From a virus (taxonomy: Duplodnaviria; Heunggongvirae; Uroviricota; Caudoviricetes), in IMG/VR virus record IMGVR_UViG_2531839237_000019: a stretch of DNA of 8,037 nt. One strand, 5' to 3'. Shown in pieces: positions 3,236-4,247 of the stretch (the first letter of the stretch is position 1; the number at the start of each line of letters is the position of its first letter). The notes under the pieces are model-generated. The model was not told where the DNA came from. It saw nothing but the letters and a program-made list of their open reading frames with translations, and made no database searches. The translations under genes were made by a program, and so were the position numbers.

Positions 3236-4247
3236 AAAGGTGAAAACCGGCAGTTCATCCAGTAAGTCAGTATTGACCTGGCTTGCTGATATGTGCGGTG
3301 CCGATTTGTGTGCATACCCGTCTGTATCTGCACTGGCAGAAGTAACGGAACTGAACAAAAAGACTGTGCAGGACAGCTTACGACACCTGATGGAGATTGG
3401 GTTAATTGTTGATACCGGTGAGAGAAAAGGCAGAACAAAGCAAATTGTGGTGTACCGACTTATCGGTGTAGAAGAAAGTGTTGCCGAGCCTGAATACACC
3501 CAAAAACGGGAGTCTTTAAAGGTGGGTAAAATTGGTGCTGTTAATAAAAACAGTACCGAAAATGGTTATGTTTCAGCACAAAACAGACCCAAAAACAGAA
3601 CTCTTAGCTGCATGGAAAATAACCAAAGACACCCAAATTTTCCATCAAAGACACCCAAAAACGGATCACGGAACCCAAAGGAACCCAAAGATCTAAACCC
3701 CACACATAACGCACGCGAGAGTGCTCCGACCAGTGAGCAGGAAGTTTTGTCGTTACAGGCAGCCCCCCCTGTATTCCTGTATGGCCTGAGCGAACCCATC
3801 GGAAAATTCCCGATGAGCGATAGCTGGTATCCGTCACGGGATTTTCGACGACGGGCTGCGTTGTGGGGGATGGCTTTGCCGGAGACAGAATTTACACCTG
3901 CTGAACTTGCCGCCTTCCGGGACTACTGGGCAGCGGAGGGGAAAGTGTTTACGCAGATTCAGTGGGAGCAGAAATTCGCCCGTCACGTAAATCACGTCAG
4001 GGCGCAGGTTAAACCAGTCAGCAAAGGGGTAAACCATGCAGCAGCACCAGGTGGCACCGCATCACGGGCAGTTCAGGAAATTCGGGCAGCACGTGAACAG
4101 TGGGAACGTGAAAACGGATTTATCAGCAACGGAAACGGCCTGGAAGCTGTGGGAACTTATGGGGGAGGTGTATTCGAACCGCTGGACCCAGAAGAACGGG
4201 GCTGCGCCGTCGAAGCTCTGGATTGCTCAGATTGGCGCGATGACTGA
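3207..4247 (+). CDS. Replication initiator (O-like) with N-terminal winged-helix domain and C-terminal DnaT-like ssDNA-binding domain
   Basis: The ORF track starts at TTG 3132; ATG 3207 (MSIDALRWAKK...) with an upstream AGGGGGG is the more likely start. The C-terminal segment GKFPMSDSWYPSRDFRRRAALWGMALPETEFTPAELAAFRDYWAAEGKVFTQIQWEQKFAR aligns with the DnaT C-terminal domain ([29 protein letters not shown]...[20 protein letters not shown]). The N-terminus looks like a DNA-binding wHTH, and a low-complexity N/K/P-rich linker lies between. Confidence 0.75.
   Translation: MSIDALRWAKKVKTGSSSSKSVLTWLADMCGADLCAYPSVSALAEVTELNKKTVQDSLRHLMEIGLIVDTGERKGRTKQIVVYRLIGVEESVAEPEYTQKRESLKVGKIGAVNKNSTENGYVSAQNRPKNRTLSCMENNQRHPNFPSKTPKNGSRNPKEPKDLNPTHNARESAPTSEQEVLSLQAAPPVFLYGLSEPIGKFPMSDSWYPSRDFRRRAALWGMALPETEFTPAELAAFRDYWAAEGKVFTQIQWEQKFARHVNHVRAQVKPVSKGVNHAAAPGGTASRAVQEIRAAREQWERENGFISNGNGLEAVGTYGGGVFEPLDPEERGCAVEALDCSDWRDD
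3584..3690 (+). repeat. Iteron-like direct repeats (ACCCAAA core) inside the initiator gene; candidate replication origin
   Basis: CAAAGACACCCAAA occurs perfectly twice (3624-3637 and 3646-3659). GAACCCAAAG is tandemly duplicated (3671-3680 and 3681-3690), and CAGACCCAAAAACAG lies at 3584-3598. Spacings are near multiples of 10-11 bp, and an A-rich stretch precedes the repeats. Confidence 0.45.

What the first reader, a model, noticed from the sequence alone, without database searches (positions are those of the whole stretch)
4036..4247. Long out-of-frame overlap between the O-like and P-like genes
The O-like frame runs to 4247 while the P-like frame is already open from ATG 4036, which has a good SD. 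In the overlap the O-frame tail looks protein-like early and then degenerates, whereas the P-frame looks protein-like only from about 4130 onward, where lambda-P similarity begins. Possible explanations are a genuine dual-coding segment, a P start at GTG 4108, ATG 4159 or ATG 4240 (the last giving an 8-nt ATGACTGA coupling overlap), or a frameshift that extended the O frame.
Basis: seen in the sequence. Interest (0 to 1): 0.4.

Follow-up and report, generated by a model that had tools for sequence, protein, structure and literature searches.

The report
Real 212-base overlap of replication genes
In this E. coli prophage the last 70 codons of the replication initiator gene and the first 70 codons of the helicase-loader gene share the same DNA in two reading frames. 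This overlap is conserved across many gut-bacterial genera, and reference annotations that start the loader gene later probably cut off its front end.

Summary

- **The two genes.** The O-like initiator (HTH + DnaT domain) runs 3207-4247. The lambda-P-like loader most likely starts at ATG 4036 (SD AAGGGG, 6-nt spacer) and ends at 4701. The overlap is 212 nt, with P in the +1 frame relative to O.
- **Conservation of the start.** In 21 homologous loci from about 15 enterobacterial genera, an ATG with a strong GGAGG-type SD sits 81-91 codons upstream of the WPPDL motif. The O frame stops 149-224 nt downstream of it.
- **Alternative starts.** Five loci have no other start codon upstream of the conserved P block. 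The RefSeq start (ATG 4240) has no SD and is CTG or TTG in four loci.
- **Shift of constraint.** Codon-position variation follows the O frame up to about 4118 and the P frame from about 4120.
- **O tail.** The O frame has no stops in any lineage, although about 0.28 per lineage is the chance expectation (product about 2e-11).
- **Structure.** The 221-aa protein models as a full-length lambda-P homologue, with a disordered head (1-27) and helices from residue 29.
- **Portable module.** The O tail plus P travels together behind at least six different O architectures.
- **Rejected options.** Frameshift or artefact, and starts at 4108, 4159 or 4240.

This is a new variant of a known module, of moderate interest. 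There is no expression evidence for either product.

The parts
3207..4247 (+). O-like replication initiator gene, 346 aa. It has an N-terminal HTH, an iteron-bearing linker, a DnaT DNA-binding domain (aa 201-267) and a C-terminal tail of about 79 aa.
   Evidence: ORF. Pfam DnaT PF17948, E 9e-17; HTH_36 is below its cut-off. RefSeq and GenBank annotate the same coordinates.
4036..4701 (+). Lambda-P-like helicase loader gene in its long form, 221 aa. This is the most likely true extent.
   Evidence: Pfam PF06992, 61.5 bits against a cut-off of 26. Conserved ATG and SD in 21 loci. The AF2 model aligns with full-length lambda P, chain 9oa1_Z, over 218 columns.
4023..4038 (+). Translation initiation region of P embedded in O codons 273-278: SD AAAGGGG (4023-4029), a 6-nt spacer, then ATG 4036-4038.
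   Evidence: The SD duplex energy averages -9.7 kcal/mol at the conserved ATG in 21 loci, against a background of -2.5. The O residue over the ATG varies (H/N/Y/D), but the codon is always NAT followed by G. None of 55 same-residue pairs differ in codon there. No conserved RNA structure hides the site.
4036..4247 (+). Dual-coding overlap of 212 nt, with P in the +1 frame relative to O.
   Evidence: The overlap is conserved at 149-224 nt in 21 loci and at 182 and 191 nt in two more distant loci.
4036..4118 (+). O-dominated half of the overlap. It encodes the O linker and the conserved O helix ASRAVQEIRAAREQWERE (4059-4112). In the P frame it encodes the disordered head, residues 1-28.
   Evidence: Variation peaks at O third positions. 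AF2 gives an O helix at fragment residues 85-102, at low confidence. P residues 1-27 have pLDDT below 50. O-synonymous variation is suppressed over P codons 3-11 (0.25 against 0.52) and only slightly over codons 12-29 (0.45).
4119..4247 (+). P-dominated half of the overlap. It encodes P helices 29-46, 48-54 and 60-67. In the O frame it encodes the Gly- and acid-rich tail FISNGNGLEAVGTYGGGVFEPLDPEERGCAVEALDCSDWRDD, which is predicted to be disordered.
   Evidence: Variation peaks at P third positions, which are O first positions. The O frame has no stops in any of 21 loci, against a chance of about 0.28 per lineage. Control frames downstream carry 1.6-2.8 stops per locus. O tail pLDDT is 40-47.
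4240..4247 (+). ATGACTGA. It contains the O stop codon TGA (4245-4247) and the ATG that RefSeq uses as the P start. Here that ATG is read as internal Met69 of P.
   Evidence: RefSeq annotates P at 153 aa from this ATG. There is no SD (-1.5 kcal/mol), and the codon is CTG or TTG in four loci.
4159..4161 (+). ATG for Met42 of P, the start chosen by PGAP in many other genera. Here it is read as an internal residue in the middle of helix 29-46.
   Evidence: Conserved P residues, including W36 and W39, lie upstream of it. It sits in helix 29-46 of the model. Its SD is weak at -4.2 kcal/mol.

Best explanation
The segment 4036-4247 is a genuine, evolutionarily maintained dual-coding overlap inside a lambdoid (Rac/PPompW-type) replication module.

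**How it is read**
- O is translated from ATG 3207 through to TGA 4247.
- P is translated independently, in the +1 frame, from its own strong and unstructured initiation site (SD 4023-4029, ATG 4036), which lies inside O codons 273-278.
- The P product is a 221-aa protein with the same layout as lambda P: a disordered head of about 28 aa, then helical domains.

**How the two frames share the DNA**
- In the 5' half, DNA that encodes a conserved O helix is read in the P frame as P's loosely constrained, disordered head.
- In the 3' half, DNA that encodes the first three helices of P's folded N-terminal domain is read in the O frame as a disordered Gly- and acid-rich O tail. That tail only has to stay open and keep a few acidic residues.

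**What is shown and what is inferred**
- Shown: conservation of the start site, maintenance of both ORFs, the shift of codon periodicity, and co-inheritance of the O tail with P.
- Inferred: the O tail is the element that recruits P (and through it DnaB), as the lambda O C-terminal domain is understood to do (recalled from background knowledge, not checked here). The overlap would then keep the cognate O tail and P welded together when the rest of O is exchanged by mosaic recombination.
- Inferred: the shorter public gene models (153 aa in RefSeq, 140 aa in LC567818, 177-181 aa from PGAP in other genera) are truncated at the N-terminus.
For: 1. **Conserved start site.** In 21 loci from Escherichia, Citrobacter, Enterobacter, Klebsiella, Pluralibacter, Phytobacter, Kluyvera, Salmonella, Scandinavium, Pectobacterium, Buttiauxella, Samsonia and others, a P-frame ATG lies 81-91 codons upstream of WPPDL. 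It is preceded by GGAGG, mostly as O-frame Gly-Gly written GGA GGT. SD energy averages -9.7 kcal/mol there, against -5.2 at Met-49, -2.6 at Met-22 and -2.5 background.
2. **No alternative start in some loci.** L009, L017, L020, L022 and L023 have no ATG, GTG or TTG between that ATG and the conserved P block.
3. **Conserved P sequence upstream of the later starts.** P-frame protein conservation begins at about residue 30, which is about 4120.
4. **Shift of periodicity.** Codon-position variation switches from O-type to P-type at about 4118-4123.
5. **O tail kept open.** It is open in all lineages although P-synonymous resampling gives about 0.28 per lineage. The product over 18 lineages that are nearly saturated at synonymous sites is about 2e-11. 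The same frame downstream of the O stop carries 1.6-2.8 stops per locus.
6. **Frozen P codons.** P codons S47, Q52, K53 and Q65 are almost fixed at third-base G. That base encodes O residues E, E, E and D.
7. **P head kept open and partly constrained.** It is open in all lineages (product about 2e-3). O-synonymous variation is halved over P codons 3-11. P-frame identity exceeds resampling by 0.26 and 0.135 in the two head segments, against 0.012 in the upstream control.
8. **Structure.** In the AF2 model, residues 1-27 are disordered and helices start at 29. Foldseek aligns 218 columns with full-length lambda P, chain 9oa1_Z. Lambda P domain I is residues 1-29 and intrinsically disordered (PMC12661323). 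Lambda P with residues 9-86 deleted is inactive (PMC3640518).
9. **Portable module.** The same tail follows O proteins with at least six architectures.
10. **Lambda-like comparison.** The lambda-like P genes examined have only 4-17 nt overlaps.
Against: - There is no direct expression evidence (proteomics, ribosome profiling) for either the P head or the O tail.
- P residues 12-29 are only weakly constrained. Across all 18 lineages, O-synonymous variation in the head is not reduced (0.555 against 0.552).
- P-head openness is only moderately improbable by chance (about 0.75 per lineage).
- O-specific amino-acid conservation in the tail (excess 0.134) is only modestly above non-overlap controls (0.06-0.105). 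The tail's sequence is therefore mostly dictated by P.
- Sequence-level homology to lambda P is demonstrable only from residue 71 (phmmer) or about 86 (hhalign) onwards. The equivalence of the N-terminal parts rests on a model of moderate confidence (mean pLDDT 71.5, pTM 0.49) and a Foldseek match with high rmsd.
- The O helix has pLDDT of only about 50.
- Additional internal initiation at Met42, giving a second isoform, cannot be excluded.
- The O-tail-to-P docking role is inferred, not tested.
Confidence: 0.85

Rival explanations
1. P starts at a start codon close to its conserved block (in this window GTG 4108 or GTG 4093). The overlap would then be about 140-155 nt, and ATG 4036 would be unused or make only a minor product.
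For: P residues 12-29 are weakly constrained, and the first 27 residues are predicted to be disordered. Some distant homologues have an ATG right at the conserved block: L015, L024, L029 and proteins P0034 and P0043.
Against: GTG 4108 and GTG 4093 have poor SDs (-2.8 and -3.8 kcal/mol) and are not conserved. Five loci have no start codon in this interval. The upstream ATG and SD are conserved at the nucleotide level against O-frame synonymous drift.
Confidence: 0.07
2. The RefSeq or PGAP-style model is right. P starts at ATG 4240 (153 aa, 8-nt ATGACTGA coupling overlap) or at ATG 4159, and the open P frame upstream is incidental.
For: RefSeq WP_000139485-type models and Rac-SA53 annotate 4240. 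PGAP picks the Met42 equivalent in many genera. An ATGA-type junction is the lambda arrangement.
Against: P-frame residues upstream of both ATGs are among the most conserved in the protein: W39, W50, K53, N54, G55, P58 and W62 are invariant. P-type codon periodicity starts at about 4123. Met42 sits in the middle of a helix, and Met69 follows three helices. The 4240 position is CTG or TTG in four loci and has no SD. Lambda P lacking residues 9-86 is dead (PMC3640518).
Confidence: 0.03
3. The O frame was extended by a frameshift or sequencing indel, so the true O ends near 4036-4120.
For: The O tail after about 4118 looks low-complexity and is predicted to be disordered.
Against: The same tail, ending at the same place, is present in closely related E. 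coli records and in other genera. Its frame stays open against a chance expectation of about 2e-11. One locus (L027) does carry a real frame disruption and looks clearly different.
Confidence: 0.01
4. Programmed +1 ribosomal frameshifting in the overlap produces an O-P fusion protein in addition to, or instead of, separate O and P.
For: The P frame is +1 relative to O, and the two frames are open together for 70 codons.
Against: P has its own conserved strong SD and ATG. The O frame is maintained right up to its own stop. No conserved RNA structure was found near the initiation site. No shift-prone motif was searched for systematically.
Confidence: 0.02

Closest known systems
Bacteriophage lambda O-P replication module (O initiator with ori iterons inside the gene; P helicase loader, PF06992)
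   Same: - The gene order is the same, within a cro-proximal early operon.
- The P-like protein passes the Pfam threshold, and its model aligns with full-length lambda P.
- A disordered head of about 28 aa matches lambda P domain I, residues 1-29 (PMC12661323).
- Iteron-like ACCCAAA repeats lie inside the O gene.
- The O C-terminal part and P behave as a co-inherited unit.
   Different: - Lambda O and P overlap by only 4 nt (ATGA). Here the overlap is 212 nt out of frame.
- The window's O is not a Phage_rep_O / Phg_2220_C protein. It is HTH + DnaT domain + tail.
- The N-terminal 70 residues of P show no detectable sequence similarity to lambda P.
Long same-strand overlapping gene pairs of small phages and viruses (for example phiX174 A/B/K and D/E, MS2 lysis gene, lambda Rz/Rz1)
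   Same: - Two proteins are read from one DNA segment in different frames.
- The overlap pairs a constrained region in one frame with a disordered or loosely constrained region in the other.
   Different: - Here neither gene is nested or newly born inside the other. The termini of two old, functionally interacting genes interdigitate.
- Dominance of constraint swaps between the frames midway through the overlap.
RefSeq 'replication protein P' models of 153 aa (WP_000139485, WP_000139447) and the Rac-SA53 'ydaV' annotation
   Same: They cover the same locus and have the same stop codon.
   Different: These models start at the ATG equivalent to 4240. They omit 68 residues, including three conserved helices. 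GenBank/nr also holds 221-aa models of the same gene (P0001, P0002).

Membership tests
Lambda P helicase-loader family (Pfam PF06992 Phage_lambda_P) | Sequence match to the family profile above the curated threshold | tested here: met
   61.5 bits against a cut-off of 26, residues 56-188. phmmer hit to lambda P chains 8v9t and 8v9s.
Lambda P helicase-loader family (Pfam PF06992 Phage_lambda_P) | Full-length fold and domain layout like lambda P: a disordered domain I of about 29 aa, then helical domains II-IV | tested here: met
   In the AF2 model, residues 1-27 are disordered and helices start at 29. Foldseek top hits are lambda P chains, with 218 columns aligned to full-length chain 9oa1_Z, E 1.2e-5. 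Model confidence is moderate (pLDDT 71.5) and rmsd is high.
Lambda P helicase-loader family (Pfam PF06992 Phage_lambda_P) | Binds host DnaB and the cognate initiator | not testable with these tools
   This needs biochemistry or multimer modelling.
Lambda-type O initiator (Phage_rep_O PF04492 / Phg_2220_C) | Match to the lambda O N-terminal or C-terminal domain profiles | tested here: not met
   The window's O matches only DnaT PF17948 (E 9e-17) and, below threshold, HTH_36. A related locus, L019, does have Phage_rep_O followed by the same tail.
Lambda-type O initiator (Phage_rep_O PF04492 / Phg_2220_C) | Origin iterons embedded in the initiator gene | tested here: inconclusive
   Repeated ACCCAAA-containing units lie at 3493-3689 inside O. 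Their binding and origin function were not tested.
Functional same-strand overlapping gene pair (dual coding) | Both reading frames are kept open across divergent homologues beyond chance | tested here: met
   O tail: open in 21 of 21 loci against about 0.28 per lineage, while control frames carry 1.6-2.8 stops. P head: open in 21 of 21 loci, product about 2e-3.
Functional same-strand overlapping gene pair (dual coding) | Frame-specific purifying selection in each frame within the overlap | tested here: met
   Periodicity switches at about 4120. O-synonymous variation is suppressed at the initiation site and P codons 3-11. P-synonymous sites are frozen at four O acidic residues. The O-specific signal in the tail is only modestly above controls.
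Functional same-strand overlapping gene pair (dual coding) | Both products detected experimentally | not testable with these tools
   No proteomic or ribosome-profiling data were available here.

The most novel reading that the evidence does not exclude
The overlap acts as a genetic interlock. The DNA that encodes the initiator's loader-docking tail is the same DNA that encodes the loader's N-terminal domain. Mosaic recombination therefore cannot separate a cognate pair. This lets one portable 'tail + P' cassette be grafted onto unrelated origin-binding proteins (HTH+DnaT, DUF1376, Phage_rep_O, DnaD-like and others). The conserved O helix (4059-4112) and the acidic, aromatic end (..DWRDD) would be the contacts for P or DnaB.
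Probability: 0.35. Interest if true: 0.65.

Novelty: new variant of a known kind. Interest (0 to 1): 0.45.

Why it matters
- **Annotation.** The helicase-loader gene of a very common prophage replication module is probably mis-annotated in RefSeq. At least 80% of window 3800-4750 is present in about 23% of complete E. coli genomes, including Stx-phage-bearing STEC. RefSeq gives 153 aa in E. coli and 177-181 aa in other genera, against a likely 221 aa. Anyone cloning or modelling the protein from those records would lose its N-terminal domain.
- **A positive control.** Long same-strand overlaps in bacterial annotation are usually treated as errors. This one has unusually clean comparative evidence that it is real, so it can serve as a positive control for overlap-aware gene finders.
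- **A testable hypothesis.** The same O tail plus P follows many unrelated initiator bodies. This points to the roughly 70-aa tail as the loader-recruiting element. Two single-base mutations, each silent in one frame, could test this directly.

Tried and rejected
- **RNA structure at the P start.** An RNAalifold run on 12 loci predicted no pairs, and the single-sequence fold had z = 0.33. Nothing suggests structure-gated coupling.
- **Scan of viral contigs.** It returned only copies 97-100% identical to the window. It added no diversity, though all 80 keep the full 221-aa match.
- **Profile comparison with lambda P.** The comparison of alignment A1 with lambda P and the phmmer search align only the C-terminal two-thirds. 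Homology of the N-terminal 70 residues to lambda P cannot be shown by sequence.
- **Lambda O read-through product O'.** It is mentioned in PMC3640518. The lambda O-frame extension into P shows no evident resemblance to this O tail (by eye) and contains stops. It is not an analogue.
- **P-head openness as a stand-alone test.** It is too weak to carry the argument, at about 0.75 per lineage.
- **Resampling tests of alternative-frame identity.** The baseline is inflated by shared ancestry. Controls in non-overlap regions give an excess of 0.06-0.105 in the P gene. The O-tail excess of 0.134 is therefore only modest evidence.
- **Literature searches.** Searches found no description of this overlap. 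The library lacks most subscription journals.
- **Frameshift or assembly artefact, and programmed frameshift.** Both were considered and rejected, or given low weight, for the reasons listed under the rival explanations.
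Full report
**Observation**

The window is part of a lambdoid, Rac/PPompW-type E. coli prophage. It is 98.8% identical to the PPompW prophages of Stx2a-phage-carrying strains over 3100-4800.

The early-right operon reads as follows:
- cro/dicC-like gene, 2473-2700
- YdaT-like gene, 2684-3235
- O-like initiator, 3207-4247 (346 aa; DnaT DNA-binding domain at aa 201-267, HTH_36 just below threshold)
- lambda-P-like gene ending at 4701
- DUF1627 gene

The O frame ends with TGA at 4245-4247. The P frame is +1 relative to O. It is open from 4033 and has ATG at 4036, preceded by AAGGGG (4024-4029) with a 6-nt spacer. 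The alternative starts it named (GTG 4108, ATG 4159, ATG 4240) are all present and in frame.

**Public annotation disagrees with itself**
- LC567818 starts P at the equivalent of 4279, giving 140 aa.
- Rac-SA53 and RefSeq/PGAP in E. coli start it at 4240, giving 153 aa and an 8-nt ATGACTGA overlap.
- PGAP in other genera mostly uses the Met42 equivalent (4159), giving 177-181 aa.
- Many GenBank and metagenome callers use the long 221-223 aa form.

**Where the P protein really begins**

I aligned 30 homologues at 46-93% identity. The P frame is strongly conserved from about residue 30 onward..TAW.LWE.MGEIYSNRW..KNG..PS.LWIAQIG.MT... In the window this is about 4120, which is 120 nt or more upstream of the O stop.

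W39, W50, K53, N54, G55, P58 and W62 are invariant in the 18-lineage codon alignment. All of them lie upstream of ATG 4240, and W39 lies upstream of ATG 4159.

I then fetched 32 genomic loci from one-genome-per-species contigs. Of these, 18 were usable, and I added the window and two annotated phage or prophage records. In all 21 loci a P-frame ATG lies 81-91 codons upstream of the W of WPPDL. The O-type ORF stops 149-224 nt downstream of that ATG, mostly at 212 or 215 nt.

The ATG is preceded by a GGAGG-type SD, mostly as O-frame Gly-Gly written GGA GGT. The O residue that spans the ATG varies (His, Asn, Tyr or Asp), but its codon is always NAT and the next codon always starts with G. None of 55 same-residue pairs differ in codon there, against about 0.55 elsewhere.

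| Start position | Mean SD duplex energy (kcal/mol) |
|---|---|
| Conserved upstream ATG | -9.7 |
| Met-49 (= 4159) | -5.2 |
| Met-22 (= 4240) | -2.6 |
| Background | -2.5 |

The Met-22 position is CTG or TTG in four loci. Five loci (L009, L017, L020, L022, L023) have no ATG, GTG or TTG between the upstream ATG and the conserved block. In those loci it is the only possible start.

**Both frames are maintained**

Four-fold sites differ by 0.5-0.8 between most loci. About 18 lineages are therefore nearly independent at synonymous sites.

In the O-frame codon alignment, variation peaks at O third positions up to ...RENG (about 4118). It then switches abruptly to O first positions, which are P third positions, until the O stop. 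Constraint is handed from the O frame to the P frame in the middle of the overlap.

*O tail.* When P codons are resampled synonymously, the O frame over the last 35-47 codons stays open with probability of about 0.28 per lineage. It is open in all 21 loci. The product over 18 lineages is about 2e-11 (my multiplication). The same relative frame downstream of the O stop carries 1.6-2.8 stops per locus. P codons S47, Q52, K53 and Q65 are almost frozen at third-base G, which gives O residues Glu, Glu, Glu and Asp. However, the overall O-specific amino-acid signal is an excess identity of 0.134. This is only modestly above non-overlap controls of 0.06-0.105. The tail must be translated and acidic, but P mostly dictates its sequence.

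*P head.* Openness alone is weak evidence, at about 0.75 per lineage and a product of about 2e-3. In eight ungapped lineages, O-synonymous variation changes along the region as follows:

| Region | O-synonymous variation |
|---|---|
| O-only DNA | 0.52 |
| SD/ATG | 0.32 |
| P codons 3-11 | 0.25 |
| P codons 12-29 | 0.45 |

P-frame identity exceeds resampling by 0.26 for residues 2-11 and 0.135 for residues 12-29. In the upstream control the excess is 0.012, and that control has stops in the P frame. Across all 18 lineages the head shows no reduction in O-synonymous variation (0.555 against 0.552). Constraint on residues 12-29 is therefore weak.

**Structure**

The AF2 model of the 221-aa protein has these features:
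- Residues 1-27 have pLDDT below 50.
- Helices lie at 29-46, 48-54, 60-67 and 71-86, and continue beyond.
- The folded part starts at 4120, which coincides with the periodicity switch.

Foldseek's best hits are lambda P chains. Full-length chain 9oa1_Z aligns over 218 of 230 columns. The cryo-EM paper describes lambda P domain I (residues 1-29) as intrinsically disordered and domain II as starting at about residue 30 (PMC12661323). Lambda P lacking residues 9-86 is dead for replication and for P-lethality (PMC3640518). A 153-aa product would lack the equivalent region.

The O C-terminal fragment models as follows:
- a confident DnaT domain
- a linker
- a low-confidence helix ASRAVQEIRAAREQWERE (4059-4112)
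- a disordered tail (4113-4244)

Order and disorder are therefore complementary. O's helix lies over P's disordered head, and P's helices lie over O's disordered tail.

**Evolutionary context**
- More distant members of the same P clade (L021, L026) also overlap their O genes, by 182 and 191 nt.
- The lambda-like P genes examined overlap theirs by only 4-17 nt: L031, L033, L034 and lambda itself.
- The O partners in the long-overlap clade have different bodies: HTH_36+DnaT, DUF1376+DnaT, DnaT with other N-termini, Phage_rep_O, HTH_36/DnaD_N, DUF1376 alone, or no Pfam hit. All end in the same roughly 70-aa tail.
- The tail and P therefore travel as one cassette.
- As recalled from background knowledge (not checked here), the lambda O C-terminal domain recruits P. 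By that analogy I infer, but have not tested, that the tail is the P-docking element and that the overlap makes cognate partners inseparable.

**Mechanism of expression**

No conserved RNA structure covers the initiation site. The simplest reading is independent initiation at a strong, open SD and ATG inside the O coding region, rather than termination-reinitiation coupling.

A programmed +1 frameshift fusion is not needed and has no support, but it was not exhaustively tested. Internal initiation at Met42 as a second isoform cannot be excluded.

**Verdict**

The overlap is real, conserved and dual-coding. The most likely P start is ATG 4036 (confidence about 0.85). The frameshift or artefact idea and the 4108, 4159 and 4240 starts are disfavoured.

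I found no description of this overlap in the searchable literature, though long-form gene models exist in GenBank. I rate it a new variant of a known kind, the lambda O-P module, of moderate interest. It is chiefly an annotation correction, a clean example of a long functional same-strand overlap, and a testable hypothesis about initiator-loader docking.

Noticed in passing
window 4735-5469 (TAG at 4786-4788): The DUF1627 gene downstream of P starts at ATG 4735 in relatives. In this window it carries an in-frame TAG at codon 18, where LC567818 and RM9872 have GAG and Rac-SA53 has GAA. The gene is either a pseudogene here or is re-initiated at GTG 4888.
   Followed up: yes
window 3493-3689: Iteron-like direct repeats containing ACCCAAA lie inside the O gene, in the linker between the HTH and the DnaT domain. 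Examples are CAAAGACACCCAAA (twice) and GGAACCCAAA (tandem, twice). Small inverted repeats are also present. This is probably the phage origin, as in lambda, where ori lies inside O.
   Followed up: partly
window 7276-7425 (+) and ORF 7366-7578: Rfam matches the sok antitoxin family (RF01794, 103.9 bits). The match overlaps the 5' part of a Hok/Gef-like toxin ORF (...MKQQKAMLIALIVICLIVIVTALVTRKDLCEVRIRTGQTEVAVFTAYEPEE). This is a hok/sok-type module in the prophage.
   Followed up: partly
window 109-158 (-): DicF antisense RNA (RF00039, 49.4 bits, just above the gathering score) lies at the left end of the window.
   Followed up: no
L027 about 2474-2690 (Leclercia adecarboxylata NCTC13032) and L032 (Candidatus Symbiopectobacterium): In L027 the P frame runs from the conserved ATG into the O-tail reading frame (...TAWHLWQVMGGNILEPVDAEEWGRT). 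This indicates an indel inside the overlap that disrupts both genes. In L032 the P gene has in-frame stops. Both are decayed copies, and they show what a real frameshift at this site looks like.
   Followed up: partly
window 2684-2700 and 3207-3235: Two further same-strand overlaps lie in the same operon: cro/dicC-like with YdaT-like (17 nt) and YdaT-like with O (29 nt). Neither was examined for correct start sites.
   Followed up: no
L003 (PP818812.1, 'Actinobacillus phage vB_Apl-pPE4'): A phage record attributed to Actinobacillus pleuropneumoniae is 91% identical at the DNA level to this E. coli Rac-type O-P region. This is unexpected for that host and suggests an E. coli prophage contaminant or a mis-assigned host.
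   Followed up: no
window 4230-4244 compared with lambda O C-terminus (L038 about 950-983): O tails of this clade end in an acidic, aromatic motif (..DCSDWRDD..DSPDRFDD..DCPDWIDE). Lambda O ends ..TNTDWIYGVDL, and O proteins partnered with lambda-like P end ..NNTDWIDGVFDENSF. A shared terminal 'DW' peptide for partner binding is possible but untested.
   Followed up: no
window 6329-7087: A 252-aa ORF with a signal-peptide-like N-terminus (MRNIMAGFLIFLSSAAYADINLYGPGG...) lies between the replication region and the hok/sok module. It is probable prophage cargo and was not analysed.
   Followed up: no
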